From an uncultured Microbacter sp. (GTDB lineage Bacteria > Bacteroidota > Bacteroidia > Bacteroidales > Paludibacteraceae), in NCBI GenBank assembly GCA_963678825.2, contig CAXXPB010000042.1, positions 87,344 to 151,343 of the forward strand: a DNA stretch of 64,000 nt. Reading direction: 5' to 3'. Both the position numbers and the translations under genes were made by a program. Positions 887 to 22,306 of this stretch are shown here, piece by piece (within the stretch, counting starts at the first letter, position 1; each line of letters begins with the position of its first letter). Below the pieces are notes generated by a model. It was not told the DNA's origin. It searched no databases and saw only the letters and a list, made by a program, of their open reading frames with translations.

Positions 887-907
887 ACATATATAAAAGT
901 AACTGCT

Positions 908-2068: not shown

Positions 2069-2126
2069 CTCGATTTATCTTCAGCGAATTTAATTTTTCA
2101 GTTGATTGCCTGTTCTTTCTAAATTT

Positions 2127-3284
2127 TCAATCCTGATCGGAATAATAAACTCCGGGCAATTTTCTCAGGTTATAGCGGGATGCCATAATTTCGCCATACG
2201 CACCTGCAGAACGAAGAGCAATCAAATCACCCCGTTTTGTTCCGTTGAGCATACGGGCTGTTCCAAAAGTATCGGACGATTCGCAAATCGGGCCCACAAC
2301 ATCATACGGTTCAAATGCTTCGTCGGAAGTAATATTTTCGATATGGTGGTATGCCTGATAAAGAGCAGGACGAATAAGGTCGGTCATGCCGGCATCTACA
2401 ATCGCAAATTTTTTGGTAGTTCCTTCTTTCACATAAAGCACCTTGGTGATCAGGCTACCGCAAGAAGCCACCATGGCACGTCCCAGCTCGAAGTGAAGCT
2501 GTTGACCGGGGCGCAATTGCAGATGATTGTGGAACACCTTGAAGTATGCCTCAAAATCGGAAATAGGAACATGATTAGGATGTTGGTAATTAATTCCCAA
2601 ACCACCACCTACATTGACATGTTCCAGTTTCAATCCCTTTTGTTCGAAGAAATCCTGAATTTCGTTTACACGAACGCAAAGATTCTGGAACGGGCACATA
2701 TCCGTGATTTGAGACCCGATATGAAAATGAATTCCAACCAGTTCTACATTAGTCAGGGTTTTAAGCAGATCAACCACCTTGCTCATATCCTCCATATTGA
2801 AGCCGAACTTATTTTCGTTCAATCCGGTAGTGATATAGTGGTGTGTATGAGCATCTACGTTAGGATTGATGCGCAAAACCACACGGGCTTTCTTCCCTTT
2901 GGCAGCTGCCAGTTCGTCAATTACTTCCAGTTCGGGAATCGATTCTGCGTTGAAACAGAAAATATTGTTTTCAAGTCCCAGATTGATTTCCCAGTCAGCC
3001 TTGCCTACTCCAGCAAAAACCACTTTATCGGAAGAGAAACCGGCTTTGATAGACGCTTCCACTTCGCCACCACTCACACAATCAGCGCCAAAACCGGCTT
3101 TGGCTATTGTTTGAAGAATCCGGTCGTTAGCATTTGCTTTTACCGCATAATGAACATGATAGCCATAACGTTCGGCTTCTGTTTTAGCAGCCTCAAGATT
3201 CTGCTTCAACAATTGCAAATCATAAAAATAAAAGGGTGTTTCAACCACCCTCAGTTTATCGACTGGAAAAGATCCTTTTACCAT
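2127..3284 (-). CDS. lysA: Diaminopimelate decarboxylase
   Basis: YAVKAN PLP lysine, HFHIGSQ, GPICESSD, AGAYG; downstream of aspartate kinase. Confidence 0.95.
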   Translation of the reverse strand: MVKGSFPVDKLRVVETPFYFYDLQLLKQNLEAAKTEAERYGYHVHYAVKANANDRILQTIAKAGFGADCVSGGEVEASIKAGFSSDKVVFAGVGKADWEINLGLENNIFCFNAESIPELEVIDELAAAKGKKARVVLRINPNVDAHTHHYITTGLNENKFGFNMEDMSKVVDLLKTLTNVELVGIHFHIGSQITDMCPFQNLCVRVNEIQDFFEQKGLKLEHVNVGGGLGINYQHPNHVPISDFEAYFKVFHNHLQLRPGQQLHFELGRAMVASCGSLITKVLYVKEGTTKKFAIVDAGMTDLIRPALYQAYHHIENITSDEAFEPYDVVGPICESSDTFGTARMLNGTKRGDLIALRSAGAYGEIMASRYNLRKLPGVYYSDQD

Positions 3285-3419
3285 AGATTCTATATTTTAA
3301 CATGCTAACTTACCAAACAGCGTTCTGCGAAGCTAATATGCCAATTATCAGATATCAGATTCTGTTGAACCGACTAATTGACATATTTGCTAATCTGTTT
3401 ATTAGCAAATTATTATTCA

Positions 3420-4727
3420 TTAAAAGATTAACTGTAGAGCCTGAAGTGCTTTAATCTTGTCGTCTTTTTTAACGAGGAACGAAATATTGTAGTTGCTTCC
3501 ACCATACGATACCATACGAATAGGCACATCTTTCAAAGCATTTACCACAACTGACTGCAAACCAACATATTCATAGTAAAGATCACCTACTACGCAGATA
3601 ATCACCATATCTGTATCTACCGTAACCGTACCCAATTTTTTCAGGTCGTTCACAATTTCTTCAAGATGCTTGGTCTTATCGATTGTCACAGACATACCCA
3701 CTTCCGATGTGGTCACCAAATCGACCGGAGTCTGGTAACTTTCGAAGATTTCGAATACTTTACGCATAAAACCATAAGCCAGCAACATACGGCCCGATTT
3801 GATTTTTATGGCTGTAATTCCGTCTTTTGCAGCTACTGCCTTGATTTTCCCATGTTCCGTTTCGTTTGAAATAAACGTACCCGGAGCCGTAGGATCCATC
3901 GTATTCAAAAGACGAACGGGAATATTGCTCAGTTTGGCCGGCAACACACAGGTTGGGTGAAGAATTTTAGCCCCGAAGTAGGCCAACTCGGCAGCCTCTT
4001 CAAAATGAAGATTACGAACCGGTTTGGTACCTTCCACAAAACGGGGATCGTTATTGTGCATTCCGTCAATATCTGTCCAGATCTGAACTTCTTCGGCCTC
4101 GAGAGCAGCGCCCAGCAAAGAAGCTGTATAATCACTGCCTCCACGTTGAAGGTTGTCGATTTCGCCATAGAAATTACGGCAGATATATCCCTGTGTAATA
4201 TAGATTTCCGCATCAGGATTCAGCTGCAATTGTTTTGCTGTATTTTCGCGGATATAAACATTGTCCGGTTCACCGTTTTTATCAGTCTTTACCATCTCAA
4301 GGGCTGGCAACAAAACCGATTTCACACCAATTTCTTTCAGATAGATGTTCATCATCGTAGTGGAGAGCATTTCGCCCTGCGCCAAAATAATTTTCTCTTC
4401 AAAAAGAGTAAAGATGCTTTTTGAGAAAGTACGGATGTAGTTGAGCAGTTTTTTTATTTCTGTTTCAGCTTCCAGCCTTGTTTCATCGGTAGAATAAAGT
4501 TCCTTGATTGTATTCAGATACTTCTTTTCGAGAGTATTGATAACTTCCATGGCTCCTACCGGATTTTTTTTATAGAAATAATCGGATATTTCTACCAACG
4601 TATTGGTAGTGCCCGACATAGCCGACAGGACTACAAGATTTTGATTACCATCACAAATCAACTTCGCGACATCCTTGAAGCGTTGAGACGTTCCTACAGA
4701 CGTTCCTCCAAATTTTAATACCTTCAT
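3420..4727 (-). CDS. lysC: Aspartate kinase
   Basis: KFGGTSVG, RGGSDYTA, WTDIDG, C-terminal ACT domains. Confidence 0.95.
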   Translation of the reverse strand: MKVLKFGGTSVGTSQRFKDVAKLICDGNQNLVVLSAMSGTTNTLVEISDYFYKKNPVGAMEVINTLEKKYLNTIKELYSTDETRLEAETEIKKLLNYIRTFSKSIFTLFEEKIILAQGEMLSTTMMNIYLKEIGVKSVLLPALEMVKTDKNGEPDNVYIRENTAKQLQLNPDAEIYITQGYICRNFYGEIDNLQRGGSDYTASLLGAALEAEEVQIWTDIDGMHNNDPRFVEGTKPVRNLHFEEAAELAYFGAKILHPTCVLPAKLSNIPVRLLNTMDPTAPGTFISNETEHGKIKAVAAKDGITAIKIKSGRMLLAYGFMRKVFEIFESYQTPVDLVTTSEVGMSVTIDKTKHLEEIVNDLKKLGTVTVDTDMVIICVVGDLYYEYVGLQSVVVNALKDVPIRMVSYGGSNYNISFLVKKDDKIKALQALQLIF

Positions 4728-4871
4728 TTTCTGAAAAATAGTGGTGTTCTGTTTGTTTTTGAAAAATCATGCAAATATAACTTTTTTCCCCGACTTTCAA
4801 GGCAAAAAAGTGAACAAAATTAACCGTTTAGATACCTGACAAAAGCAAATCAGATATCATACCGCCGCCTT

Positions 4872-5135
4872 TTATCCTCTTTTCAGGACATCGTCGAACA
4901 AAGCTTTCACCTCTTCCTTATAAATTCCGCCTTCATGCAGCTTTTCATCTCCGAGATAAAAAGTCGGCACATAGTAATAATCGAATGAATCGGCGCGCTC
5001 TTTTTCTACGTTTTCATCCACAACTTCGAGTTCAATTTCCTTGTATGCTCCGTCCTTTTTCAGTTCATCGATATAGCTCAGCGCCCGACGACAAAACGGA
5101 CAGGTTTCCTGTATAAATAATGTTAGTTTAGGCAT
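4872..5135 (-). CDS. Glutaredoxin/thioredoxin-like protein
   Basis: CPFC motif and YYVPTF cis-Pro segment. Confidence 0.85.
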   Translation of the reverse strand: MPKLTLFIQETCPFCRRALSYIDELKKDGAYKEIELEVVDENVEKERADSFDYYYVPTFYLGDEKLHEGGIYKEEVKALFDDVLKRG

Positions 5136-5139
5136 AAGT

Positions 5140-5312
5140 TGATTTACAATTTAAACATTTACGATTTACCATTTAGGAATCTGAAGTTCCAAGTTTCAGA
5201 TTTCAAAATTTCAGGCTGAGCTTCGATTAAAGAGTCCAAATTACAAATATCCACATTCTCAAATTATCATATTGGCACATTGGCACATTGTCAAATTGTC
5301 AAATTTTCAAAT
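5140..5312. repeat. Degenerate 7-mer and 8-mer tandem arrays
   Basis: ATTTACA/ATTTACG/ATTTACC heptamers and ATTGGCAC/ATTGTCAA octamers. Confidence 0.8.
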
Positions 5313-6476
5313 TGATTTCACCGCTTTTTCGATGCGGTTCATAGCTTCTACCACCAATGCGCGGGGGCAACCCACGTTAATGCGTTGGTGGCCTTCTCCT
5401 CCGGGGCCGAAGGTTGGTCCGTCATTCAGTCCGAGCCCGGCCTTTTCGATCATCAGCTTACGCAAAGCTTCGTTGCTCAGTCCCAGTTCCGAAAAGTCGA
5501 TCCACACCAAAAACGACGATTCGGGCATCATCGCTTTTACTCCCGGAATATTTTTCTCGCAGTAATCGACAACAGTTCGGGCATTGCCTTCCAGATAATC
5601 AACCATCTGAAGGAGCCACTCTTCGCCCTGCGTATAAGCCGCTTCTGTTGCAACAAAACCAAAAAGGTTCACATGCAGATCGACATGCTCCATCGCCATT
5701 TCAAATTTACGGCGCAAGGTCGGATTCGGAATCACATAATACGAATTAATTAATCCCGGTACGTTAAAGGTTTTGCTCGGCGACATAAACGTAACCGAAT
5801 TATCGCGGGCTGTTTCCGAAATCGAAGCAAACGGAATATGCCGCAAAGCATGATAGGTCATATCAGCATGAATTTCGTCGGAAATAATCAAAACGCCCTT
5901 CGACGCGCACATTTCGGCCAGTTTCTCAAGCGTTTCCCGGTTCCACACGCGCCCGCCGGGATTGTGCGGATGACAGAGAATAAATAACCTTGCGTTATCG
6001 CTCAACTGTTTTCCCAATAGATCAAAATCCATTTCATAACGACCATTCACCTCTTTCAAAGGATTGTAAACCACTTCACGACCGTTACCGCTGGGCACTT
6101 TGAAGAAGGGAGGATACACCGGCGGTTGCACAATCACCTTATCACCGGGTTGCGTAAACGTATTCACTGCAAAACCCAATCCCGTCACGATGCCCGGCAC
6201 AAAACCGAACCATTCTGCATCGGCTTCCCAACCGTAACGGCGCTTTTGCCAATCAGCACATATTTTTTTCAAACTGAGAGGAGGAATCGTATAGCCAAGA
6301 ATCTCGTGTTCAAGGCGTTCTTTCAAAGCATCTGTAATGAATTGTGGCGTACGGAAATCCATATCCGCCACCCACATGGGTATCACGTTCTCTGTTCCAA
6401 ACACCTTTTCTCTCAGGTCATATTTATAACAGCTTGTATTTTCTCTGTCTATTTGTTCATCAAAATTATATTTCAT
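5307..6476 (-). CDS. patB: MalY/PatB-family PLP-dependent C-S lyase (cystathionine beta-lyase)
   Basis: PMWVADMDF, CHPHNPGG, SDEIHAD, SPSKTFN motifs. Confidence 0.88.
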   Translation of the reverse strand: MKYNFDEQIDRENTSCYKYDLREKVFGTENVIPMWVADMDFRTPQFITDALKERLEHEILGYTIPPLSLKKICADWQKRRYGWEADAEWFGFVPGIVTGLGFAVNTFTQPGDKVIVQPPVYPPFFKVPSGNGREVVYNPLKEVNGRYEMDFDLLGKQLSDNARLFILCHPHNPGGRVWNRETLEKLAEMCASKGVLIISDEIHADMTYHALRHIPFASISETARDNSVTFMSPSKTFNVPGLINSYYVIPNPTLRRKFEMAMEHVDLHVNLFGFVATEAAYTQGEEWLLQMVDYLEGNARTVVDYCEKNIPGVKAMMPESSFLVWIDFSELGLSNEALRKLMIEKAGLGLNDGPTFGPGGEGHQRINVGCPRALVVEAMNRIEKAVKSI

Positions 6477-6568
6477 TGTCTTGTCTGATTTATGAAGAGC
6501 AAATTTACTCTTTTTGAACCGAAATCCTTATATTTTCGTTTGAAGCGGCTATTAATTGCAAAACGAAA

Positions 6569-6821
6569 ATGATTATTCGCAAAGTGACCGCTAAACACCG
6601 GAGGTGTTATCCCAAAAATAACGTCGGAATTTATCCCGACAAAAAAAAGGAAGTCGTATTTTCACCTAACGCTGTAAGCGTTTCCCCTCCACAGGGAAAC
6701 CGCTATGCGGTTCAGAGAACAGATTATTCCCTTTGCACTTGCACCGGGATAAATCCCAGCGTTATTTTTGGGTTACGACGTTGTCGTAAAAAGCCCCTTG
6801 GGTCATTATGTAGATGTTCAT
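6569..6821. mobile_element. Palindromic non-autonomous element (REPIN/MITE-like), family A copy 1
   Basis: Colinear with 38496-38748; imperfect terminal IR and internal GTCGGAATTTATCCCGAC hairpin. Confidence 0.75.
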
Positions 6822-6957
6822 GAAAATGAATATCGGATTTGACGCACAAATCCGGTTAAGGGTTTACTGCAAATCGGAGAGCAGCGTCAGCTAATAACCG
6901 CACATGCAATTCACGGGGTTATCATAGCCAGTCATTACATGACAAACATGCAGATAA

Positions 6958-7046
6958 AATGGCTTGAAAAACCTCATTTACATAACCACAGGTCTGCGAC
7001 CTGCGCAAAGACAACCTTCTACCGACACGACCTGAATGGTCGGACA
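6958..7046. repeat. REP-like element family C, partial copy
   Basis: Matches 40658-40746 (AATGGCTTGAAAA.CCTCATTT.CATAACC.CAGGTCTG.GACCTGCGC...CGACCTGAA.GGTCGGACA). Confidence 0.75.
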
Positions 7047-7163
7047 TGTCTTAACAACGGACACTTTCATTTTTTAATCCGGGTTCACTTTTAATCACAC
7101 AAGACGAATCATACCTTACTGTATTCCAAAAGAATATATCATGCATTAAAAATTAAACAAACC

Positions 7164-7194
7164 TTTGGGTGATACAAAAAATAGTGTAACTTTG
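7164..7194 (+). promoter_or_regulatory. Bacteroidetes housekeeping promoter for manC
   Basis: TTTG (7164-7167), 19-bp spacer, TAACTTTG (7187-7194). Confidence 0.7.
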
Positions 7195-7246
7195 CTTGCA
7201 TAACCAGCATAAAACAACAATCTTATATTCAATTGGTTAAAAAACT

Positions 7247-8320
7247 ATGGAAAATAATTATTGTATCATCATGGCAGGCGGAATCGGCAGCCGCTTCTGG
7301 CCGTTCAGCCGAAACAACCGTCCCAAACAGTTTCTCGATTTTTTTGGAACCGGTCGTTCTCTTCTTCAAATGACATTTGACCGATTCAGCAAATTCGTAC
7401 CAACACAGAACATTCTCATTGTCTCCAATGTTATCTACAAGGATCTCATACTAGAACAACTTCCCGAAATTTCAGAAAATCAGGTATTGCTCGAACCCTG
7501 CCGTCGCAACACGGCACCCTGCATTGCCTATGCCGTACACCGCATCAAATCACAAACCGATAAAGCCAATATTATTGTAGCGCCATCCGATCATCTTATC
7601 TTAAAAGAAGACGAGTTCGGAGCTACAATTCGCAAAGGTCTGGATTTTATCAAAAAAAATGATTGTCTGCTGACGTTGGGCATCAAACCGAGCCGTCCTG
7701 AAACCGGCTACGGCTATATCCAGATTGCCGATGGAAAAGGATCACTTCGAAAAGTTTTGACTTTCACAGAAAAGCCGGATTTAGAGCTGGCCAAGGTTTT
7801 TATGAAAAGTGGAGAATTTTTCTGGAATTCAGGCATATTTCTCTGGAATTTGCAAACTATCGATACTGCCTTTGAAAAACTATTGCCCGAAATGCAGCAG
7901 AAGTTTTCGCAAGGCAAAGACATTTACAACACAGACAAAGAGCAAGCATTCATCAATGACGCTTTCCCTTCCTGCCATAATATTTCTATCGACTACGGTA
8001 TCATGGAAAAAGCCGATAACGTGCATGTATTAACGGCTGACTTCGGATGGTCCGATCTGGGCACCTGGGGCTCGCTCTACGATTTATCGAACAAAGACGA
8101 TAATAAAAACGTCACCCTCAAGTGTAACGCTCAGTATTACAACAGTAAAGAAAACGTTGTAACACTTGAACCGGGCAAACTGGCGGTTATCGACGGTCTG
8201 GAAGGTTATATCGTTGCCGAATCGAACAACGTACTGCTTATTTGCAAAAAAGAGAACGAACAACATATCCGGCAATTTGTTACCGACGCACAGGTAAAAT
8301 TCAAAGATGAATATATTTAA
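7247..8320 (+). CDS. manC: Mannose-1-phosphate guanylyltransferase
   Basis: IMAGGIGSRFWPFSR, PKQFL, ETGYGYI, WNSGIF, WSDLGTW. Confidence 0.93.
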   Translation: MENNYCIIMAGGIGSRFWPFSRNNRPKQFLDFFGTGRSLLQMTFDRFSKFVPTQNILIVSNVIYKDLILEQLPEISENQVLLEPCRRNTAPCIAYAVHRIKSQTDKANIIVAPSDHLILKEDEFGATIRKGLDFIKKNDCLLTLGIKPSRPETGYGYIQIADGKGSLRKVLTFTEKPDLELAKVFMKSGEFFWNSGIFLWNLQTIDTAFEKLLPEMQQKFSQGKDIYNTDKEQAFINDAFPSCHNISIDYGIMEKADNVHVLTADFGWSDLGTWGSLYDLSNKDDNKNVTLKCNAQYYNSKENVVTLEPGKLAVIDGLEGYIVAESNNVLLICKKENEQHIRQFVTDAQVKFKDEYI

Positions 8321-8362
8321 CCCGGCAATTTGAAAATTTGGGAATTTGAAAATGTAAAAATT

Positions 8363-8390
8363 AAGCGCAAATCAATCGTATTTGCGCTTT
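8363..8390 (+). terminator. Hairpin terminator after manC
   Basis: AAGCGCAAAT-caatcgt-ATTTGCGCTT followed by T-rich sequence. Confidence 0.6.
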
Positions 8391-8485
8391 GTTCATTTTC
8401 TCGATTAGAGTATATAGTCCGATTAAGCATTTCAGGAATTTACCAGTAAAGAAGAGTGCTCGCAATAGCGCACAGAACTGTTATT

Positions 8486-8639
8486 TTCATAACTCCGTCC
8501 TTCAGGGCGGAGGCAAAAGATGAAGAGTATTTTTATGGGCTTCAGCCCTGATGATAAAAGATCGGGAAAAACGATTCAGGGCTAAAGCCCATTCTTAAGC
8601 ATAGGTCTGTTACTCCGCCCTGAAGGACGGAGTAATGAA
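8486..8639. mobile_element. REP doublet (REPIN-like), family B copy 1
   Basis: ACTCCGTCCTTCAGGGCGGAG and inverted CTCCGCCCTGAAGGACGGAGT enclosing GGGCTTCAGCCC/GGGCTAAAGCCC; matches 58068-58213. Confidence 0.8.
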
Positions 8640-8716
8640 TCTGTTTTAGACATAAACTTGATCGGCATACCATCCATCTTCAAATCCCCAAATATCCAAA
8701 TCCTCAAATTAGTTTT

Positions 8717-10813
8717 ATGAAGCAACTGATTTTTACTTTATTGATTATGACTTTATGCGCAACTCCTTCCCATGCAAAAGACGAAGCCAAGCTGATTGAA
8801 AAAAGCGACTTCAAAGTGCAGAACGGAGTGATGCCCCCCGAAGCGCTCTGGGCTCTCGGTCGTGTGGGCGATGTGAGTGTTTCGCCCGACGGCAAAAAAG
8901 TGTTGTACAGCGTGCGCTACTACAGCGTGGAGCAAAACAAGAGCAACGCCGACCTGTATATGATGAATGTTGACGGCAGCAACGTACAACGCCTTACCCA
9001 AACGGCAAAAAGCGAAGGCAGTCCGGCTTTCAGCCCCGACGGCAAACACATCGGCTTTACTTTTCCCGATAAGGATGGTAACGACCAGTTTTTCGAAATG
9101 ACTCTGGACGGTCAGGATCGCAAGCAAATTTCGTCTATCGAGGGCGGCATTGAAGGATTTAAATATGCGCCCGACGGCAAACACATTCTTTACATCAAAC
9201 CCGTCAAAAAGGAGAATCCGCACGAAAAGCTCTTTGCCGGACTCGACAAAACAACGGGCCGCGTGAACGAAGACCTGATGTACCGCCACTGGGACGAATG
9301 GGTGGATAGCTATCCTCATCCTTTCGTAGCCGATTTCGACGGCAGCAAGCTGAGCAACGACACCGACCTTTTGCAGGGCACTCAGTTCGAATCGCCGATG
9401 CGCCCGATGGGTGGCGTAGAGCAACTGGCATGGTCGCCCGACGGCAAAAAAATTGCCTACACCTGTCGCAAAAAGGTGGGCAAAGCCTACGCCCTTTCCA
9501 CCAATTCGGATATCTACCTGTACGATATTGCCGCCAAAACCACCGAAAATATTTCGGAAGGGATGATGGGCTACGATATCAATCCGGTATTCTCGTCCGA
9601 CGGCAAGAAAATTGCCTGGGAAAGCATGGAACACGACGGCTACGAGTCGGACAAATCGCGCCTGATGGTGTACGATTTTGCCACCAAAACCGCCAAAGAT
9701 TATACCCAGAAACTCGATCAGAGCGTTCACAACATCTGCTGGAGCAAGGATAACAGCAAGCTCTACTTTATCAGTCCGTTCCACGGCGTGGAAGATATTT
9801 TTGTGGCCGATGTCAAGACAAATGCCATTCGCCGCGTGACCGAAGGCGTGCATGACTATCTCTCTATCGATTTGGCAGGCAAAAATCTGATCGGATCACG
9901 CCAGTCGATGTCGGCTCCTACCGAGATCTTCTCGATCAATCCGGCCGACGGCAAAGAGGCCCAAATCTCGTTCGAGAACAAGGAGCTGATGGCGCAACTC
10001 AAAATAGCTAACGTGGAAGGTCGCTGGATTAAAACCACCGACAACAAGGATATGCTCACCTGGGTGATCTACCCGCCGAATTTCGACAAAAACAAGAAAT
10101 ACCCCACCCTGCTCTTCTGCGAAGGCGGACCTCAAAGCATGGTGAGCCAGTTCTGGAGCTACCGCTGGAACATGCAGATTATGGCTGCCAACGGCTACAT
10201 CGTGGTGGCTCCCAACCGTCGCGGATTGCCCGGTTTCGGTCAGGAGTGGCTCGAACAGATCAGCGGCGACTACGGCGGACAAAACATGAAGGATTACCTT
10301 TCGGCCATCGACGCGCTTGCCAAAGAACCGTATGTGGACAAAGATCACCTGGGATGCGTGGGTGCCAGCTACGGAGGATTTTCGGTGTACTGGCTGGCCG
10401 GTCACCACGACAAACGTTTCAAAGCCTTTCTGGCACACGACGGCATCTTCAATCTGGAACAGCAATATTGCGAAACCGAAGAGATGTGGTTCGTCAACTG
10501 GGATTTGGGTGGCGCCTACTGGGATAAAAACAACCCCACGGCACAACGCAGTTATGCAAACTCGCCCCACCGCTTTGTCGACAAATGGGACACTCCCCTT
10601 ATGGTGGTTCACAGCGAAAAAGATTACCGCATCGTGGCATCGCAGGGAATGGCGGCCTACAACGCCGCCGTGCTGAGAGACCTTCCGGCTCGTTACCTCT
10701 ACTTCCCCGATGAAAACCACTGGGTAACCAAGCCACAAAACGGAATCCTGTGGCAACGCACCTTCTTCGACTGGCTGGATAAATGGCTGAAAACGCCCGA
10801 GAACTCGAAGTAA
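8717..10813 (+). CDS. S9 family peptidase (dipeptidyl-peptidase 5-like), secreted
   Basis: Signal peptide, PD40 propeller repeats (SPDGK), GASYGG nucleophile, DYRI, DENHW. Confidence 0.92.
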   Translation: MKQLIFTLLIMTLCATPSHAKDEAKLIEKSDFKVQNGVMPPEALWALGRVGDVSVSPDGKKVLYSVRYYSVEQNKSNADLYMMNVDGSNVQRLTQTAKSEGSPAFSPDGKHIGFTFPDKDGNDQFFEMTLDGQDRKQISSIEGGIEGFKYAPDGKHILYIKPVKKENPHEKLFAGLDKTTGRVNEDLMYRHWDEWVDSYPHPFVADFDGSKLSNDTDLLQGTQFESPMRPMGGVEQLAWSPDGKKIAYTCRKKVGKAYALSTNSDIYLYDIAAKTTENISEGMMGYDINPVFSSDGKKIAWESMEHDGYESDKSRLMVYDFATKTAKDYTQKLDQSVHNICWSKDNSKLYFISPFHGVEDIFVADVKTNAIRRVTEGVHDYLSIDLAGKNLIGSRQSMSAPTEIFSINPADGKEAQISFENKELMAQLKIANVEGRWIKTTDNKDMLTWVIYPPNFDKNKKYPTLLFCEGGPQSMVSQFWSYRWNMQIMAANGYIVVAPNRRGLPGFGQEWLEQISGDYGGQNMKDYLSAIDALAKEPYVDKDHLGCVGASYGGFSVYWLAGHHDKRFKAFLAHDGIFNLEQQYCETEEMWFVNWDLGGAYWDKNNPTAQRSYANSPHRFVDKWDTPLMVVHSEKDYRIVASQGMAAYNAAVLRDLPARYLYFPDENHWVTKPQNGILWQRTFFDWLDKWLKTPENSK

Positions 10814-10836
10814 TTCCAAACGGATATGCACACCGT

Positions 10837-10874
10837 AAAGGCTTCATTGAATCGTTATATTCAATGAAGCCTTT
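10837..10874 (+). terminator. Intrinsic terminator
   Basis: AAAGGCTTCATTGAAT...ATTCAATGAAGCCTTT inverted repeat then T-rich tract. Confidence 0.85.
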
Positions 10875-10967
10875 GTTATTTTTATTTCTCCCCTCACGAC
10901 CAATTAGCTTAATAATTATTTTTTTATACCAGCCACAAATTGCATTTAATTTGTTAATTATTTATCG

Positions 10968-10975
10968 TATGTTTG
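10968..10975 (+). promoter_or_regulatory. Putative -7 box reading into the cassette-like array
   Basis: TATGTTTG fits TAnnTTTG; the -33 box is not canonically spaced. Confidence 0.45.
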
Positions 10976-11115
10976 CAGAGGAAATCAATTCGCTTCGGAG
11001 CGTAAGTAACTAACGGTTATTGAGATTACAGACAGATTCTCGTTCAAGCTTAACGAAGTGTAGCTTGGCCGTAAAATAGAATCAGTTTGCAACTGATTAG
11101 CTTCATTGATTTTCA

Positions 11116-11191
11116 ATTCACTTTGTCGCTGGGCATCAGTGAACGCTCACGCAAACCGCCAATACCCTTAGCCTCGGCAGTTAGCAGCTAG
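11116..11191 (+). repeat. attC-like site, family Y right arm, ending at GTTAGCAGCTAG
   Basis: Shares ATTCACTTTGTCG with 45770-45782 and is complementary to the arm at 45739-45776; ends in GTT just upstream of an ORF. Confidence 0.55.
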
Positions 11192-11242
11192 CCGAAAAAC
11201 AATAATGCAATTGCAAGTTTAATTGACAATAACAAAAGAAAT

Positions 11243-12115
11243 ATGCAAGGAGTATGTAGGTTAACTCTAAAACAATGTGAACTTCAAAACTCACATATCT
11301 ATCCAAAGTTTGTAGTTGATTGGATGAAATCTACAGGCTCAAAATACCTAAGAAATTATACTACACCAAATAGGAGGCAGCAAGACGGTCTCAAAAAATA
11401 TTTATTATCTTATGAAGCAGAACAACTTTTTAGTATTCACGAAAAATGGTTTTGTGAAAATGTTTTTCATAAATATTTAGAGAATCAAACTCTTGAAATT
11501 GAATACAATGAGAGTTTATTTTATTTTGCAATTTCTTTTTTGTGGAGAATCTTAGTTCTTGAACTAGAACATCCCAATATTCAGACATTTAAATTTGTTA
11601 ACGAAATGAGAGAAGCTGAAAAAGAATGGCGAGACTTTCTTCTAAACGGAATCTACCCTTTAAATTATGACAGAATTCATTTAATACTATCAGACAATAT
11701 AAAAAATCACACTCTACCTAGTGGAAATGTTGAATACTTCTTTACTAGAAGTATGGATGGCACTACTGCTTTTAACGAGGAGTATAATAAATGTTCCATT
11801 TTTGCGAAGTTCTCCAAATTTATTTTTTTGGGGTTTATAAAAAGTCCAGATGAATCTGGTTTAGTTGGAACTAGAATAAATCCTATAAAAGGGATAATGA
11901 AAGCACCTCAAAAATTTGATAATATCGATGTGACAAGTTTCTTTCTTCACAGAATTCAGATTCTAGACAAAATGGAACTAGCTTCAGAGAATCAACAAGA
12001 AAAAATACTTGACGAAATAAGAAATAACCGAGAATTCTATCAAAACAGCGAATTATTCAACACAATGAATTTTGATAATGAAATGTATAAAAAAAACAAG
12101 AATAACAAATGGTAA
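11243..12115 (+). CDS. Hypothetical protein with degenerate HNH-like N-terminus (cassette gene)
   Basis: CRLT...SHIYPKF...QDGLK..LLSYEAE resembles the CxLC..SHIIP..LC..CE HNH-like pattern; low GC. Confidence 0.6.
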   Translation: MQGVCRLTLKQCELQNSHIYPKFVVDWMKSTGSKYLRNYTTPNRRQQDGLKKYLLSYEAEQLFSIHEKWFCENVFHKYLENQTLEIEYNESLFYFAISFLWRILVLELEHPNIQTFKFVNEMREAEKEWRDFLLNGIYPLNYDRIHLILSDNIKNHTLPSGNVEYFFTRSMDGTTAFNEEYNKCSIFAKFSKFIFLGFIKSPDESGLVGTRINPIKGIMKAPQKFDNIDVTSFFLHRIQILDKMELASENQQEKILDEIRNNREFYQNSELFNTMNFDNEMYKKNKNNKW

Positions 12116-12176
12116 TAATATAAACAAAAAACCTGCTCTGTTCATCCCATTATGCGTTTGATTATTAAGCAATACA

Positions 12177-12235
12177 ATAGCTACATAAGACAAATATATG
12201 CACCATGCAATGGCACATACACAGATGTTAGGCAC
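12177..12235 (+). repeat. Short attC-like site
   Basis: ATATGCACCAT-gca-ATGGCACATAC pairs fully only on the bottom strand (G.T wobbles); ends in GTTAGGC (12227-12233). Confidence 0.6.
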
Positions 12236-12252
12236 AAGTTAAACAATTAGAC

Positions 12253-12894
12253 ATGTACGGAATCCACAAAACATACAAAAGTGACTATCCAAATCAAGTC
12301 CACCAATTGAATCTTTCAATTTCTCAAAACCATTATTTATTGAAAAGTGGAGAGATTAAATATCAAATTAAAAAATTTGATGTCAATTGGAAGAATTACC
12401 AAAAGACCGGAAAAAGACATTTAGTTAACTTTCTAATCAGAGACCATTTTAGCAATTGCTTTTACGCAGAAATTTATCCCATTGATGAGACGCCAGATAT
12501 GAAAGAGTTTCTGTTTAATGCGTGGAGAGAAAAGGAAAAGTATGAATTTTGTGGTATTCCACATCTTTTAATCATAGGAAAACACATATTCGAAAAATTT
12601 CCAGAAATTGAAAACCTCGAGAAAAATATTGGTGTAAAAGTTCAATTAGCATCTAGTGGTTTCACTACTGGAGTTCGCTCACTAAGAGACTGGGAAAATA
12701 ATATCCGATTCGCACCATATTACAATAATTCTAAATACATCAAAGATTTTCAAAACAACACAGAACTTATTTGCCGCAGATTAAATATTCGAGACAGTGG
12801 AAAAACAGAACCAAATCTATTAAAATGGGCAAATAATAAACCTCAGGGAGGAATAATCAATGACAAAAAGAAATTTACTACTTTATTTAAATAA
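12253..12894 (+). CDS. Hypothetical protein resembling a Mu/rve integrase-core fold with degenerate DDE
   Basis: YPNQVHQLNLS, FLIRDHFSNCFYAEIY, FLFNAW...FCGIPHLLII mirror rve core motifs. Confidence 0.6.
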   Translation: MYGIHKTYKSDYPNQVHQLNLSISQNHYLLKSGEIKYQIKKFDVNWKNYQKTGKRHLVNFLIRDHFSNCFYAEIYPIDETPDMKEFLFNAWREKEKYEFCGIPHLLIIGKHIFEKFPEIENLEKNIGVKVQLASSGFTTGVRSLRDWENNIRFAPYYNNSKYIKDFQNNTELICRRLNIRDSGKTEPNLLKWANNKPQGGIINDKKKFTTLFK

Positions 12895-12945
12895 AGACAA
12901 CAAACCAGCACCTAACCCTCGTTGATCGTAGCATGCAAAACAGAT

Positions 12946-13078
12946 TCCCCCGCTCCCGCGCGAATCTTTCGCGTGGGCAAGCCAAACGTTAGGGTAAAAA
13001 CAAAATAGTAACAGCAGGTCGGCGAAACCAGAAAAACAAGACACAGCCACAGGATGCAATCGTGCAACAGTAGGGGGA
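12946..13078. repeat. REP-like element family D copy 1
   Basis: 29-bp identity GCTCCCGCGCGAATCTTTCGCGTGGGCAA with 45794-45822; distal GATGCAATCGTGC arm. Confidence 0.75.
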
Positions 13079-13143
13079 GACCTCCACATAGATAAGCTGT
13101 TGAAAATAAACCACTATTTTATCTACTATTTTGCCGTTCTTTA

Positions 13144-13881
13144 TTATAGCCATTTCACAGATATACTATCTTTCATCCATCTATATTTGATGATACTGTA
13201 GCTCCAAGGTACACTTTCGAGCAGTATATCGTATGCTTTGCTTTCGACCGTGAGTTGCAGCCCCTCATCGATTGCACAGATTTCTCCTTCCCGCTGTAAA
13301 AAACTTTCGCGCAGACCGGCTACCGAAGTATTCTTCAATTCCATCCAATTTTGAATAACTGCCCGCAACATACTATCGGTGGTTTCTTTTTCAGTATCCG
13401 TCAGAACTACGCTTTTCGGAATGGGAATATCAGTCTGAAAACCGGTCAACAGTTTATTGAAAGTCATCTGATGTTCGGAAAATTCTGTTCGTTCAAATAC
13501 CAGGTATTGTAGTACAAACAAAGTGCGTATCTGCGCATCACGATCTTTAAAACTCCCCGCTTCGGTTAACTCCAACCTATCAAACAATCTGGGCAAATAA
13601 GGAGTCAGGAGCGCTAAACCGGCATTATCAATAAAGGTTGGTTCCATAAATTCTTCTTCTAATATTTCATATTCAACAATTTGAGGAGAAAGCTTCCGTT
13701 CCGTGAGTTTTCCACTTAGCTTTTGATTCTTATTCTGCTGTATATCGTGTGACAACTGATTCAGTTCAGGCAAAGGCTGCGCTGTCCTTTTCTGAAGTAC
13801 TTGTGATTGCCGCAGTTTATTCTGTGTTAATAACCGCGATAAATAATATTTTAACAAAATCCGATTGGCATAGCAGGCCAT
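13144..13881 (-). CDS. Orphan, probably 5'-truncated contractile injection system tape-measure-like protein (CIS_TMP C-terminal domain)
   Basis: IDNAGLALLTPYLPRLF...NKLLTG...VIQNW..LKNTSVAGLRESFLQREG...AYDILLESVPWSYSIIKYRWM...VKW. Confidence 0.75.
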   Translation of the reverse strand: MACYANRILLKYYLSRLLTQNKLRQSQVLQKRTAQPLPELNQLSHDIQQNKNQKLSGKLTERKLSPQIVEYEILEEEFMEPTFIDNAGLALLTPYLPRLFDRLELTEAGSFKDRDAQIRTLFVLQYLVFERTEFSEHQMTFNKLLTGFQTDIPIPKSVVLTDTEKETTDSMLRAVIQNWMELKNTSVAGLRESFLQREGEICAIDEGLQLTVESKAYDILLESVPWSYSIIKYRWMKDSISVKWL

Positions 13882-13997
13882 CGATGATATGATAACGAAT
13901 CAGGGCATGTTAATTTTGTGGCATGATAATTCAGTAACTGGTTCGAAAACTAAAAATTACATGACAAAGTTAATATTATATTTTACATAATTCTCTT

Positions 13998-14110
13998 CCT
14001 CGTTCGCAGTAGCGTGTAAAGCAGATTAGGATTCGGCGCAGACTCTTCCTACTTTAGGATATAAAAGCAAGAAGTTTCTTTGAATGGGAATGACACGAAT
14101 AACCGCAAAT
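13998..14110 (+). repeat. Repeat family X (attC-like left arm)
   Basis: GTTCGCAGTAGCGTGTAAAGCAGATT..GTTCGGCG...ATAAAAGCAAG shared with 15539, 18723, 19184 and partly 12917. Confidence 0.75.
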
Positions 14111-14434
14111 CATCTGTTACATACACTGCCTTAGTAAACTCCAGGTGACACAAGTATGGCAGATTCTTAGTTCATGCTAACTGACAGTCAACGACCGAAG
14201 GAAGTTAAACTTGGACTGAACCAACGGTCAGCGAAGCTAAAAGATAACCAAGTTGTACTTGGTTGTGGCTGCAAACCACTCTGGTTTACAGCACAAGTTA
14301 CCGCTTCGCTCAAACTTACGCTAAATCGGACCGTCCGTTATGACCAATACTAAAAAATACAGATAAAATACGAATAAAATATAGATATTTTCATAGGTTT
14401 GATTATCTTTGTTCGGATAAAATACGAATATGAT

Positions 14435-15505
14435 ATGGATAAATTTCAAAACAAGCTAAATTTCAACTTTGGCGTAAATCAACAGATAATCAATAAAGTA
14501 AGCTTTATTGATTCATTTAGAGGCAAATGGAATCTTGTTGAACAGAAAGAAAATAATTATCTGAAAGAGCTTCGGAGAATTGCAACTATAGAATCAATCG
14601 GTTCCTCAACAAGAATTGAAGGAGTTCAATTAACTGACAATGAAATCATAGAGCTTCTTAAAAATGTGGAGATAACAAAACTTGTAACAAGAGACCAACA
14701 GGAAGTAGTCGGATATTATGATGTTCTGGAAATAATTTATGAAAGTTATCCTGAAATTCGCATCTCTCAGAATTACATTCAACAACTTCACCAAAGGTTG
14801 TTGAAATACAGCGAAAAGGATGATAGACACAGAGGGAACTATAAAAACTTATCTAATAAAGTCGTAGCAAACTATCCGGATGGAACTCAAAAGGTGATAT
14901 TTAACACGACTGAACCACACTTGGTTGAAAGTGAAATGAATGAACTAATTAACTGGACAAATCAGGAATTAGAAAAAAATGAAATACACCCATTAGTCAT
15001 AATAGCTTTGTTTATCTATGAATTCTTATCAATTCACCCTTTTCAGGACGGTAATGGTCGACTTTCAAGACTTCTGACAAATTTACTTCTGCTTAAAAAT
15101 AATTATCAGTTCATTCAATATGTATCATTTGAAAATTTAATTGAACAGAAGAAAAAGACTTACTATGAGGCTTTAATGGATGGACAAAAAGACAGAAACA
15201 CAGAAAATGAAAAAATAAATGCCTGGGTTCTTTTCTTTTTAGACTCATTGGAAACGTTAATTCACAGATTAGAACAAAAGTATAGCCTGTTTAAATCTAA
15301 AGGTGGATATTTGAGCGAAAGGCAGAAAAAGATTATGGATTTTATCTCTTCAAATCAGCCGATTAAACTAACAGATTTAGTACTTGCAATGCCCGAAATT
15401 TCAAGCCATACACTAAAAAAAGACTTGCTTTATCTTAAAACAGAACAATTTATCCAATCAATTGGCAAATATAAGGGGACAATATACATAAAAAAGGAAA
15501 GTTAA
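14435..15505 (+). CDS. Fic family protein with C-terminal HTH
   Basis: HPFQDGNGRLSR catalytic motif and SSTRIEG autoinhibitory motif. Confidence 0.92.
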   Translation: MDKFQNKLNFNFGVNQQIINKVSFIDSFRGKWNLVEQKENNYLKELRRIATIESIGSSTRIEGVQLTDNEIIELLKNVEITKLVTRDQQEVVGYYDVLEIIYESYPEIRISQNYIQQLHQRLLKYSEKDDRHRGNYKNLSNKVVANYPDGTQKVIFNTTEPHLVESEMNELINWTNQELEKNEIHPLVIIALFIYEFLSIHPFQDGNGRLSRLLTNLLLLKNNYQFIQYVSFENLIEQKKKTYYEALMDGQKDRNTENEKINAWVLFFLDSLETLIHRLEQKYSLFKSKGGYLSERQKKIMDFISSNQPIKLTDLVLAMPEISSHTLKKDLLYLKTEQFIQSIGKYKGTIYIKKES

Positions 15506-15506
15506 A

Positions 15507-15784
15507 GTACAGGCCATAATACACGTTCTTAGGTTTATCGTAGCGAATAAAACAGATTCAGGTTCGGCGTATGGCTCTGCCTACGTCGTGGATAAAAGCC
15601 GGAAATTTGGTTGAACGTAAATGACACGAATAACTGCAAATAGCTTACCACAAACATTGAAAGGCAAAATGGTTATGCTATCGTTCTAATTCGCGGCGAC
15701 TTGCGTAATTTGCGTTCAATACCTTTGAAACAGAAACGACTCGCCTCAAAAACCGCCACTACTCCTCCTATGCGAACCATTGTT
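15507..15784 (+). repeat. Longest family X element (attC-like) with a nested inner palindrome
   Basis: Starts at inverse core GGCCATAAT, inner IR 15611-15641/15688-15719, ends CTAC...TGCGAACCATTGTT complementary to the family GTTCGCAGTAG arm. Confidence 0.6.
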
Positions 15785-15891
15785 CTTAATTGTGAAAATG
15801 ATACCATAGAATAGATTTTCTTTTAAAATCCCTCTCAATAGATTAGTATTTCATCAAAACTTCCACATCTTTGTAGTCCAAATTAAACACT

Positions 15892-16563
15892 ATGGATTTT
15901 AAAGATAAAGAACTTATTATATTCGACTTTGACGGTACACTCATCAATAGTATTCCCGACTTAGCAACGGCTATCAATAAAATGTTGACGCATTTTAATT
16001 TACCAGACATAGAGATAGACCTCATTGCTTCATTTGTTGGAAACGGAGCTTCTATGTTGGTAAAGAGAGCGTTGAAACTTGCCATGCAGGACAAGGAACC
16101 AACGAATGATTTTTTCGCAGAAGCATTTGCGTTTTATCTTTCGGCATATAAAGAAGTATCGTGTCAGAAAACATTCACTTATCCGGGAGTAGTAGAAACG
16201 CTGAATTACCTTGATAAAAAAGGCTATAAGATGGTGATCTGCTCGAATAAACCGTTTGACTATATTGAACCGATTCTCGATTTTCTTTCCATTAAACCGT
16301 ACTTTAAACGTTGGATTGGCGAAGACTCAATGCCGGAGAAAAAACCTCATGCCGCCCCTTTGCTTTATTTAGCGAAAGAGATGAATACGACAGTAGAAAA
16401 AAGCATCGTGGTGGGTGACTCAAAAAATGATATTCTTGCGGCGCAAAATGCGGGGATGAATAGCGTGGGTGTGACCTATGGCTACAATTACAACGAGAAT
16501 ATTGCAGACTATAAACCAAGTGTAGTGTTAGATAGTTTTCCTGACCTACAAAAAATATTTTGA
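15892..16563 (+). CDS. gph: Phosphoglycolate phosphatase (HAD)
   Basis: FDFDGTLINS, CSNKP, KKPH, VGDSKND, YGYNY. Confidence 0.8.
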   Translation: MDFKDKELIIFDFDGTLINSIPDLATAINKMLTHFNLPDIEIDLIASFVGNGASMLVKRALKLAMQDKEPTNDFFAEAFAFYLSAYKEVSCQKTFTYPGVVETLNYLDKKGYKMVICSNKPFDYIEPILDFLSIKPYFKRWIGEDSMPEKKPHAAPLLYLAKEMNTTVEKSIVVGDSKNDILAAQNAGMNSVGVTYGYNYNENIADYKPSVVLDSFPDLQKIF

Positions 16564-21268: not shown

Positions 21269-22306
21269 TCAAAAGTATGTCTTAACAGCGAACTCAAACT
21301 GGTTGATGAATATCTCTTTAAATTTTGATATGTTATTTTGTTCATAAAACAATAACATCGCCTTCTTGTAGTCTATCGAATCTACTGTTCTGAATGAAAT
21401 CGGACAATATTTGTAGTTCATTAAAATTGCATTACTTACAATTCTTGCCGTTCTTTTGTTTCCATCCATAAATGGCTGAATGTATGATATCAGCACTAAA
21501 GTCAACAGCGCTTTTTCAAATATATCCTCTTTTTTATTCACCAGTTCACAAGCAGATTCCAAAGCTTCACGTATTTGAAATTCATTGTCAAGCGGGCGAT
21601 AATTCGTACCCGAAATACCCACTCTCCGTTTTCTTAAATGTTTGTCAACTGCCAGATCTTTGATGAGCAAGCTATGTATGTCTTCAATTTTCAAAATTGA
21701 CAATGGCATTAAATAGTCCGGATTTTCGACAATAAAATCTATAGCATCTTTGTGGTTCAGAAGCATAATGGCTTCTTCTTTTGTTTTCCCGGCTGCAGTT
21801 TCTTTGTCTTTAAGCAACCTTTCAGTTTCAAGCAACGAATAAGTATTTCCTTCAATCTGAGACGATTTCCAGCTTAAATCAATGGCAAGTCGTTCAAGTT
21901 CTTTTTTGCATTCAAAATCAGATAGTTGAGATATATTTTCAGTATATTTTGCTTGTAGGTCAGTCAGCTTTGAAAGCTCAGTTTCATTCAGGATTTCAGC
22001 CTTGTCTAATAATTCAAAAATATCCAGATTGAACTCTCCTTTAATTTTTCGTTCATCAATTTCCTTCTCGTAATAACTATCTAAGTCAATTGGACACAGT
22101 AATTCATAAGTCGGTGAAATGGAATACCTAGTTCCTTTTCCTTTGCCTTCCGAAATTATGTACTTTTCGGTTAGAAGCTGAGATAAAAGTCGTTTAACCG
22201 TCGCATAGCTAATCGAAGTCGCAAACTCTTTGTGAATTTCTCCGGAAGAGCAGCTTGCATGATTCTGGATGAAATTTAAGATTTCATTTTGTCTCGTTTC
22301 TTGCAT
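21269..22306 (-). CDS. Fic family protein with N-terminal wHTH and non-canonical motif
   Basis: QPFMDGNKRTAR (His replaced by Gln), SSQIEGN. Confidence 0.88.
   Translation of the reverse strand: MQETRQNEILNFIQNHASCSSGEIHKEFATSISYATVKRLLSQLLTEKYIISEGKGKGTRYSISPTYELLCPIDLDSYYEKEIDERKIKGEFNLDIFELLDKAEILNETELSKLTDLQAKYTENISQLSDFECKKELERLAIDLSWKSSQIEGNTYSLLETERLLKDKETAAGKTKEEAIMLLNHKDAIDFIVENPDYLMPLSILKIEDIHSLLIKDLAVDKHLRKRRVGISGTNYRPLDNEFQIREALESACELVNKKEDIFEKALLTLVLISYIQPFMDGNKRTARIVSNAILMNYKYCPISFRTVDSIDYKKAMLLFYEQNNISKFKEIFINQFEFAVKTYF

What the first reader, a model, noticed from the sequence alone, without database searches (positions are those of the whole stretch)
12253..12894. Cassette-borne, catalytically degenerate Mu/rve transposase core
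Seen: a 213-aa protein with rve/Mu-A-like motif order (PNQVHQLNLS; LIRDHFSNCFYAE; NAW..K..FCGIPHLLII). The first catalytic Asp position is Asn, the DxG motif is lost, and there is no DNA-binding domain or TIRs. Inference: a domesticated RNase-H-fold protein kept intact as its own cassette, perhaps a decoy or inhibitor of transposable phage or another defence factor.
Basis: inference. Interest (0 to 1): 0.7.

Follow-up and report, generated by a model that had tools for sequence, protein, structure and literature searches.

The report
Dead Mu-type transposase core, stand-alone gene
This 213-residue gene encodes only the catalytic-core fold of a Mu-like phage transposase, with all three catalytic residues replaced; it belongs to an old, selected, mobile family found in defence islands and prophages, and its function, possibly jamming transposases, has not been tested.

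Summary

**What it is**
- An AlphaFold model (pLDDT 86.9) matches the TnsB, IstA and retroviral-integrase catalytic cores (Z up to 14.7).
- A profile of DDE-intact relatives hits the protein at E 1e-29.
- Those relatives are transposase A of Mu/B3/BcepMu-like transposable phages and sit next to a MuB-like ATPase.
- All 110 long relatives keep D-D-E. None of 105 short or fused representatives does. P0001 has N20, G109 and S143 at those positions.
- On the tree the dead forms are one side of a single branch with 99-100% SH-aLRT support.
- Eleven sequenced copies are intact, with pN of 0.15-0.34 against saturated pS. It is not a decaying fragment.

**Where it occurs**
- Neighbouring genes are never conserved.
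- The settings are defence or conflict islands (Hachiman, Gabija, restriction-modification, Abi/HEPN, toxin-antitoxin), a conjugative transposon, an integrative mobilisable element, a siphovirus-type prophage and a BcepMu-like transposable prophage.
- It is rare: 1 of 400 other genomes sampled in the phylum.

**What is not shown**
- "Cassette-borne" is only partly supported. The gene lies in a hypervariable, repeat-punctuated hotspot, but no canonical attC pair and no integron integrase were found.
- The decoy/inhibitor idea fits the data but is untested (about 30%).

This scan noted the same family earlier in other genomes (e1-2129563, e1-150258).

The parts
12253..12894 (+). Gene for the 213-aa stand-alone, catalytically dead transposase-A core (P0001)
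   Evidence: ORF. AF2 model with pLDDT 86.9 and pTM 0.85. TnsB/IstA/integrase fold, Z 12-14.7. Profile of DDE relatives hits it at E 1e-29.
12310..12312 (+). Codon AAT = N20, at the position of the first catalytic Asp (PNHVHQxD in active relatives)
   Evidence: Alignments: D in 110 of 110 long relatives; N/L/S/I/V/M in the dead family.
12577..12579 (+). Codon GGA = G109, at the position of the second catalytic Asp (DxG motif)
   Evidence: D in 110 of 110 long relatives; P or G in most dead forms.
12679..12681 (+). Codon TCA = S143, at the position of the catalytic Glu (KGxVE)
   Evidence: E in 110 of 110 long relatives; S/D/A and others in the dead family.
12911..12995 (+). Imperfect hairpin downstream of the stop (CCTAAC ... 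GTTAGGG) that encloses a GC-rich REP-like hairpin. It is attC-like but not canonical. It is context and has not been shown to belong to the gene.
   Evidence: ssDNA fold -16 kcal/mol, z -2.5. The 12947-13075 part recurs on other contigs. No RYYYAAC...GTTRRRY pair by strict pattern.

Best explanation
Shown: the gene encodes only the RNase-H-fold catalytic core (the equivalent of domain II-alpha) of a transposase A of Mu/B3/BcepMu-type transposable phages. It lacks the N-terminal DNA-binding domains and the C-terminal beta-barrel and regulatory domains. All three DDE residues are replaced (N20, G109, S143). It belongs to an old clade of such dead cores that separates from the active transposases on a single tree branch, is under purifying selection, has no conserved partner gene, and moves between defence islands, conjugative and mobilisable elements and prophages. 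Inferred (about 30%): it works without catalysis as a transposase mimic. It would enter or bind the transposition machinery of an incoming or resident Mu-like element (the transposase multimer, its DNA intermediates, or both) and block productive transpososome assembly. That would give superinfection exclusion or defence against transposable phages or related DDE elements, much as truncated transposase derivatives inhibit their parent enzymes.
For: Fold: Foldseek hits to TnsB at E 2e-7 and VIA-align Z 14.7 over 180 residues, with IstA and retroviral integrase cores next. Homology: phmmer links P0001 to 554-578-aa proteins. These are phrog_310 transposase (E 2.5e-45), sit beside a phrog_296 MuB-like ATPase, and match transposase A of B3-like, BcepMu, phiSHP3 and Mae-JY22 phages. 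The profile of these long forms hits P0001 at E 1e-29. Triad: D-D-E in 110 of 110 long forms and 0 of 105 dead forms. Single origin: one branch with 99-100% SH-aLRT support separates the dead forms from the DDE forms. Selection: pN 0.15-0.34 against pS 0.72-0.99, and 11 of 11 copies intact. Stand-alone: neighbours share no similarity. Settings: Hachiman plus XhoI restriction-modification; RloB/AAA_21, SymE and HEPN_AbiV; conjugative-transposon cargo next to Gabija; mobilisable element with Abi_C and BsuBI; HEPN_RES; polymorphic toxin/Imm44 and HEPN_AbiU2; a lone opposite-strand accessory gene (a 'moron') beside the tape-measure gene of a prophage. A member also lies inside a BcepMu-like transposable prophage, 3 kb from the phage's own active A and B genes, on the same strand just after an HTH regulator gene. 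The family is rare and patchy: 1 of 400 other genomes in the phylum.
Against: Close DDE-intact parents were not found in 400 genomes of the window's order. The named hosts of the parent clade are mostly not Bacteroidota, so a cognate target in this host is not identified. P0188 found no Bacteroides phage among 69 phage records. Several basic residues conserved around the active site of the active enzymes (K46, K48, R59, R137, K139, R188, R200) are lost, so binding DNA the way a transposase does is doubtful. The domains that in MuA contact MuB and drive tetramer assembly (established knowledge) are absent. Defence-island association is guilt by association and was not scored against a background.
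Confidence: 0.3

Rival explanations
1. It is a non-catalytic accessory protein of mobile elements that reuses the fold for something unrelated to transposition. Examples would be binding another nucleic-acid structure or a host or phage protein, acting as a sensor, regulator or anti-defence factor.
For: The gene is carried by elements that do not transpose by a DDE enzyme: a siphovirus-type prophage with a tyrosine integrase, a conjugative transposon and a mobilisable element. One nested clade is fused to TPR/ST7-like protein-interaction repeats. The protein is still basic, with pI 9.4. The family has its own conserved residues that the active enzymes lack: Y8, H17, S24, Q38, K40, Y71, E73, W91, G136 and F137.
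Against: No candidate ligand or partner has been found, and neighbours are never conserved. This reading does not explain the copy inside a transposable phage any better than the mimic idea does.
Confidence: 0.3
2. It is a still-active enzyme with a remodelled active site, for example a nuclease or phosphotransferase that uses H17, D64, H65, E73 and E148.
For: Several polar residues are nearly invariant in the dead family: N14 99%, H17 96%, D64 99%, E73 83% and E148 86%.
Against: The best-conserved of these (N14, D64, S67) are equally conserved in the active transposases. That points to a structural role, not a new catalytic centre. The three canonical metal ligands vary freely across the family: N/L/S/I at the first, P/G at the second, S/D/A at the third. 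No coordinates were available to test whether the residues cluster.
Confidence: 0.1
3. It is half of a two-gene module with the upstream 290-aa gene (11243-12115, phrog_26326), together forming one inserted cassette.
For: Both genes are on the same strand, 137 nt apart, and share low GC. A repeat of the C65 array family lies just upstream of the pair (11116-11206), and a hairpin lies just downstream.
Against: None of the sampled neighbours of the nine other homologue loci compared resembles the 290-aa protein. An earlier follow-up in this scan reached the same conclusion for a different neighbour (e1-2129563).
Confidence: 0.05
4. It is a decaying fragment of a full-length transposase with no function.
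For: It is shorter than any active relative and lacks the catalytic triad.
Against: There are 118-120 divergent clusters of the same length, separated from the active forms by a single branch. dN is far below saturated dS, and 11 of 11 copies have intact frames. The ORF ends are conserved.
Confidence: 0.02

Closest known systems
Transposase A of transposable phages (Mu, B3/D3112-like, BcepMu; PHROG 310; Pfam rve / DDE_2)
   Same: The catalytic-core domain is homologous: profile E 1e-29, and pairwise E 5e-11 between a family member and its own phage's transposase. They share the motifs PNxVHQ, DHxSG, FLxxAW and GxP, and a conserved Trp near the C-terminal end of the core. The fold is the same.
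   Different: The DDE triad is absent, there is no N-terminal end-binding domain, no beta-barrel or C-terminal regulatory domain, and no adjacent B ATPase. Length is about 213 aa against 550-620 aa.
TnsB of Tn7 and type V-K CRISPR-associated transposons; IstA of IS21 (solved structures 8rdu, 8aa5, 7svw, 7pik, 8q4d)
   Same: These are the best structural matches: Z 14.4-14.7, 168-181 residues aligned, rmsd 3.4-5.2.
   Different: Sequence identity is only 11-12%. No sequence-level hit to any PDB chain was found. Those proteins are active multi-domain enzymes that work with AAA+ partners.
Truncated or inactive transposase derivatives that inhibit their parent enzyme (Tn5 Inh, P-element KP repressor; established knowledge, not tested here)
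   Same: This is a functional analogy only: a transposase-derived protein without catalysis that could poison multimer assembly.
   Different: Those inhibitors are made from the transposase gene of the same element and keep multimerisation or DNA-binding domains. This family is a separate, ancient, horizontally mobile gene, usually with no cognate transposase nearby.
Integron gene cassettes
   Same: It is a single promoter-poor gene in a hypervariable array-like hotspot, followed by an imperfect hairpin with CCTAAC/GTTAGG ends.
   Different: No integron integrase scored over the cut-off. There is no structured site upstream. The strict attC core pattern is not met, and the flanks are not conserved in any homologue locus.

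Membership tests
DDE/RNase-H-like retroviral-integrase superfamily (rve clan) | RNase H-like beta-beta-beta-alpha-beta-alpha-beta-alpha core fold | tested here: met
   AF2 secondary-structure order; Foldseek E 2e-7 and VIA Z up to 14.7 to TnsB, IstA and integrase cores.
DDE/RNase-H-like retroviral-integrase superfamily (rve clan) | Catalytic Asp-Asp-Glu triad | tested here: not met
   N20, G109 and S143 at the aligned columns; 0 of 105 family representatives keep the triad, against 110 of 110 long relatives.
DDE/RNase-H-like retroviral-integrase superfamily (rve clan) | Match to Pfam rve (PF00665) or DDE_2 over the gathering score | tested here: not met
   No Pfam family at E<=1. Only language-model neighbours carry rve or DDE_2 in a minority of members.
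Transposase A of transposable phages (PHROG 310) | Sequence homology of the core domain | tested here: met
   phmmer links; profile A3 hits P0001 at E 1e-29 over profile positions 111-271; the long forms are phrog_310 and match phage transposases. P0001 itself has no PHROG hit.
Transposase A of transposable phages (PHROG 310) | N-terminal DNA-binding domains and C-terminal beta-barrel / regulatory domains | tested here: not met
   P0001 spans only the region equivalent to about residues 135-345 of the long forms.
Transposase A of transposable phages (PHROG 310) | Adjacent MuB-like AAA+ transposition ATPase and phage ends | tested here: not met
   The neighbours are a 290-aa phrog_26326 protein and a CIS_TMP fragment. 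No terminal inverted repeats were found.
Integron gene cassette | attC site (R''/L''...L'/R' hairpin with RYYYAAC and GTTRRRY cores) at the 3' end, and the R' core of the previous cassette at the 5' end | tested here: inconclusive
   The downstream hairpin runs CCTAAC...GTTAGGG with z -2.5 but fails the strict pattern. GTTAGGC lies 26 nt upstream of the start, but that region has no significant fold.
Integron gene cassette | Integron integrase (IntI, TIGR02249) with attI | tested here: not met
   The best match in the genome is 121.9 + 89.9 bits against a cut-off of 265, on another contig and without the middle segment of the model.
Known anti-phage defence systems (PADLOC-DB v2) | Match to a model of a known or candidate defence protein | tested here: not met
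   No PADLOC family at E<=1.

The most novel reading that the evidence does not exclude
A widespread, enzyme-free, single-gene immunity or exclusion factor: a catalytically dead copy of the Mu-type transposase core that poisons transpososome assembly of transposable phages (or related DDE elements). It would be traded between defence islands, conjugative elements and phages, including transposable phages that use it against rivals or to restrain their own transposase.
Probability: 0.25. Interest if true: 0.8.

Novelty: new variant of a known kind. Interest (0 to 1): 0.55.

Why it matters
Transposable phages replicate by transposition, so their transposase is an obvious but so far unexploited target for host or rival-phage immunity. 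If this family acts as a transposase mimic, it would add a mechanism (dominant-negative molecular mimicry of a phage replication enzyme) that is distinct from the nuclease, NADase and abortive-infection logic of most known systems. It would be a compact 640-bp tool for shutting down Mu-type transposition.

Even without that, the result has value. It defines an unannotated protein family with no Pfam, NCBIfam, PHROG or PADLOC model and at least 118 clusters at 50% identity. It gives the family a clear evolutionary origin and a simple, testable prediction.

Tried and rejected
- **Family libraries.** Pfam, NCBIfam, PADLOC and PHROGs scans of P0001 found nothing meaningful.
- **PDB by sequence.** A profile search of PDB sequences returned only chance hits.
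- **Cultured phages.** tblastn of P0001 against 50,697 phage records gave no match.
- **Homodimer prediction.** No verdict, so it is not used as evidence either way.
- **Expression.** No RNA holder was listed; read laying was not run.
- **Genome scan with the long forms.** The search for related loci with alignment A3 on genome contigs failed because no stretch was conserved enough.
- **Conserved partner.** All-against-all BLASTP of neighbours from ten loci gave no hits. The two roughly 330-aa upstream ORFs on viral contigs are unrelated.
- **Tape-measure link.** The CIS_TMP fragment next to P0001 and the tape-measure gene next to the prophage copy are unrelated, so that resemblance is coincidence.
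- **Integron reading.** No IntI scored over the cut-off. No canonical attC core pair and no conserved flanks were found at any homologue.
- **Terminal inverted repeats.** Only AT-rich chance pairs were found.
- **Charge comparison.** The dead and active cores are both basic, so this is not discriminating.
- **Recent duplication.** The idea that the phage-borne copy is a recent duplicate of its own transposase is rejected, because it nests deep inside the dead clade.
- **Literature.** Searches for an inactive-transposase defence or exclusion factor found no description. That is not proof that none exists.

Full report
**1. Observation**

The ORF at 12253-12894 (+) encodes 213 residues (P0001). 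All three quoted motifs are present. It lies in a low-GC stretch (0.33 against 0.42-0.52 in the flanks), between an S9 peptidase gene (8717-10813) and a HAD phosphatase gene (15892-16563). Its companions there are:
- a 290-aa protein of unknown function (11243-12115, phrog_26326);
- a truncated contractile-injection tape-measure fragment on the other strand (13144-13881);
- a Fic/SoFic-like gene (14399-15505).

P0001 has no Pfam, NCBIfam, PADLOC or PHROG family.

**2. It is a real, conserved gene**

A word-indexed search found 81 proteins at 35-82% identity, almost all 205-225 aa. The few that carry names come from Bacteroidota (Mariniphaga, Pedobacter, Flavobacterium, Zhouia, Chitinophagaceae), and one cluster is labelled Caudoviricetes. 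An exhaustive phmmer search found 240 cluster representatives at E<=1e-3.

Eleven copies with DNA in hand all have intact frames of the same length. Non-synonymous differences are 0.15-0.34 per site, against 0.72-0.99 (saturated) at synonymous sites. That means strong purifying selection.

**3. Fold**

AlphaFold2 on a 30-sequence alignment gave pLDDT 86.9 and pTM 0.85, with the strand and helix order of an RNase H-like core. The structural matches were:
- Foldseek against the PDB ranks TnsB of Tn7 and type V-K CRISPR-associated transposons first (E 2e-7), then IstA and retroviral integrase cores.
- VIA-align gives Z 14.7 over 180 residues for TnsB, 14.6 for IstA and 12-14 for integrase cores.
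- The best viral match is a siphovirus 'transposase'.

**4. Origin**

Among the phmmer hits are proteins of 554-578 aa in which the matching region sits at about residues 135-330.
- One of them, P0188, is phrog_310 'transposase' (E 2.5e-45).
- It is followed by a phrog_296 'DNA transposition protein', a MuB-like AAA+ ATPase, in a Mu-like early-region layout.
- By tblastn it matches transposase A of B3/D3112-like Pseudomonas phages, BcepMu, phiSHP3 and a Microcystis phage (E 1e-25 to 6e-39).
- About 100 further relatives are annotated DDE-type integrase/transposase and often sit on contigs of 35-45 kb.
- A profile built from nine long forms, searched over 400 genomes of the window's order, has P0001 as its best hit (E 1e-29, profile positions 111-271).

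**5. Catalytic residues**

I aligned everything to one HMM.
- All 110 long relatives carry D, D and E at three columns, in the motifs PNHVHQxD, LxxDxG and KGxVE.
- P0001 has N20, G109 and S143 at those columns.
- None of 105 short or fused representatives keeps the triad. The first position is N/L/S/I/V/M, the second P/G/S, and the third S/D/A.
- Residues conserved in both groups are N14, D64, S67, F86, L87, A90, G101, P103, G140 and W192. These look like fold determinants.
- Several basic residues conserved only in the active enzymes are lost: K46, K48, R59, R137, K139, R188 and R200.
- The dead family has its own conserved set: Y8, H17, L19, S24, Q38, K40, Y71, E73, W91, G136, F137 and E148.

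**6. History**

Maximum-likelihood trees of the core put all dead forms on one side of a single branch, with 100% SH-aLRT support (127 rows) and 99% (138 rows, 18 DDE forms). This fits one ancient loss and truncation followed by radiation into at least 118 clusters at 50% identity. One nested clade (11 of 14 long fused forms) has gained C-terminal TPR/ST7-like repeats.

**7. Genomic settings**

No neighbour is conserved. An all-against-all BLASTP of neighbours from ten loci gave no hit. The settings are:

| Homologue or locus | Setting |
|---|---|
| P0005 | Between Hachiman (HamA plus helicase) and an XhoI-type restriction-modification system, near a relaxase |
| P0020 | RloB/AAA_21, SymE and HEPN_AbiV |
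| P0029 | Cargo end of a Bacteroidota conjugative transposon, overlapping a 665-aa HATPase_c_3 gene and followed by Gabija |
| P0018 | Mobilisable element with two tyrosine recombinases, Abi_C and a BsuBI-type endonuclease |
| P0040 | Array with GYF_2 and HEPN_RES |
| P0055 | Bracketed by two IS copies, near SymE and FRG |
| P0046 | Polymorphic toxin/Imm44 and HEPN_AbiU2 |
| P0077 | DUF4238 with IS21 and IS66 |
| G109 (L073) | Three-gene islet between housekeeping genes |
| P0032 | Lone opposite-strand gene beside the tape-measure gene of a gut siphovirus-type prophage |

The most telling case is on IMG/VR contigs L047 and L049, where a 203-aa member lies inside a BcepMu-like transposable prophage.
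- It sits 3 kb from the phage's own active A gene (phrog_310, E 1e-146) and B gene (phrog_296, E 2e-93).
- It lies on the same strand just after an HTH regulator gene and before the lysis genes.
- It aligns directly with that phage's transposase core (E 5e-11), with S, P and S at the D, D and E positions.
- It is not a recent duplicate, because it nests deep inside the dead clade.

The family is rare. A profile scan found it in 1 of 400 other genomes of the phylum. No match to the gene was found in the 30 closest relatives of the window's genome.

**8. The 'cassette' label**

- In same-genus genomes the interval between the peptidase and HAD genes ranges from about 1.2 to 14 kb, with different content, and contains short repeats that recur across the genus.
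- In this genome, a repeat family that includes window 11116-11206 forms a same-orientation array at 1-2.7 kb spacing on contig C65. The array lies directly downstream of a 534-aa tyrosine recombinase that resembles integron integrases but scores under the cut-off.
- P0001 itself is followed by an imperfect hairpin (12911-12995, z -2.5) that encloses a REP-like element also found on other contigs.
- The upstream spacer has no significant fold and no copy elsewhere in the genome.
- The strict attC core pattern is not met, and no homologue locus shares the flanks.

So the gene is a discrete insert in a repeat-punctuated hotspot. An integron cassette in the strict sense is not shown.

**9. Mechanism**

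Shown:
- a transposase-core fold without catalytic residues;
- selection to keep it;
- independence from any partner gene;
- mobility;
- association with conflict loci, including a transposable phage.

Inferred: the simplest role that fits every setting is interference with Mu-type transposition by mimicry. That would mean superinfection exclusion when a phage carries the gene and defence when another element or the chromosome carries it. I rate this at about 30%.

Points against:
- No cognate transposase was identified in this host's order.
- DNA-contacting basic residues are lost.
- The domains that mediate MuB contact and tetramerisation in MuA (established knowledge) are missing.

The rivals are another non-catalytic role such as sensor, regulator or anti-defence (about 30%), a remodelled enzyme (about 10%), a two-gene module with the upstream gene (about 5%) and a dead relic (about 2%).

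**10. Comparison and novelty**

The family works from the scaffold of transposase A, TnsB and IstA but fails the defining tests of an active member: the triad, the flanking domains and the ATPase partner. It is an analogue, not a relative, of truncated-transposase inhibitors such as Tn5 Inh. I found no published description.

This scan has met the family before. Entry e1-2129563 called it a dead Mu-type transposase core beside a HEPN gene. Entry e1-150258 noted the AT-rich gene after a tape-measure stop. My results were reached independently and agree with both.

I class the finding as a new variant of a known kind, with interest 0.55.

Noticed in passing
G000 contig C65:39600-52000 (locus L069); window 11116-11206: A 534-aa tyrosine recombinase resembles an integron integrase but scores below the cut-off and lacks the model's middle segment. 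It is followed by same-strand ORFs separated by five copies of a roughly 90-bp repeat ending in GTCGTTAGC, at 1-2.7 kb spacing. One copy of this repeat sits just upstream of the 290-aa gene in the window. This looks like an integron-like cassette platform.
   Followed up: partly
window 10814-15891: The interval between the S9 peptidase and HAD phosphatase genes is a hypervariable hotspot. In same-genus genomes it measures about 1.2 to 14 kb with different content, and it is studded with several short repeat families that recur across the genus.
   Followed up: partly
window 13144-13881 (-): A 245-aa ORF matches only the C-terminal half (profile positions 245-463) of the contractile-injection-system tape-measure family PF19268. 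A same-genus genome (G010) has a stretch 86% identical at the DNA level. It looks like a stranded gene fragment.
   Followed up: no
window 14399-15505 (+) and 21269-22306 (-): Two Fic-domain genes. The first matches the PADLOC SoFic model (E 3e-43). The second carries an N-terminal Penicillinase_R-type winged helix.
   Followed up: no
window 11243-12115 (+): The 290-aa upstream neighbour has no Pfam family but matches phage family phrog_26326 (E 2e-43, unknown function). It is unrelated to the DUF4238 protein that neighbours another family member.
   Followed up: partly
L047 / L049 (IMG/VR prophage contigs), 67-12452: A BcepMu-like transposable prophage with B ATPase, transposase A, phrog_1748 and a Ner-like regulator on one strand. 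On the other strand it has an HTH regulator, phrog_10002, the dead-core gene, phrog_5663, endolysin and terminase. The dead core occupies an accessory slot between the regulator and the lysis genes.
   Followed up: yes
L065-L068 (contigs carrying P0144): The TPR/ST7-fused subfamily (about 500 aa) sits between comEC and a PemK toxin-antitoxin pair plus holA, next to IS21. This setting is different from that of the short forms.
   Followed up: no
L012-L016 (conjugative-transposon cargo): The dead-core gene overlaps the start of a 665-aa HATPase_c_3 gene by 44 nt, directly upstream of a Gabija pair. It could be an operon in this lineage only.
   Followed up: no
window 10835-10876: A perfect 16-bp-arm hairpin followed by a T run lies right after the S9 peptidase stop (fold z -6.5). 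It is a likely intrinsic terminator and marks the left edge of the islet.
   Followed up: no
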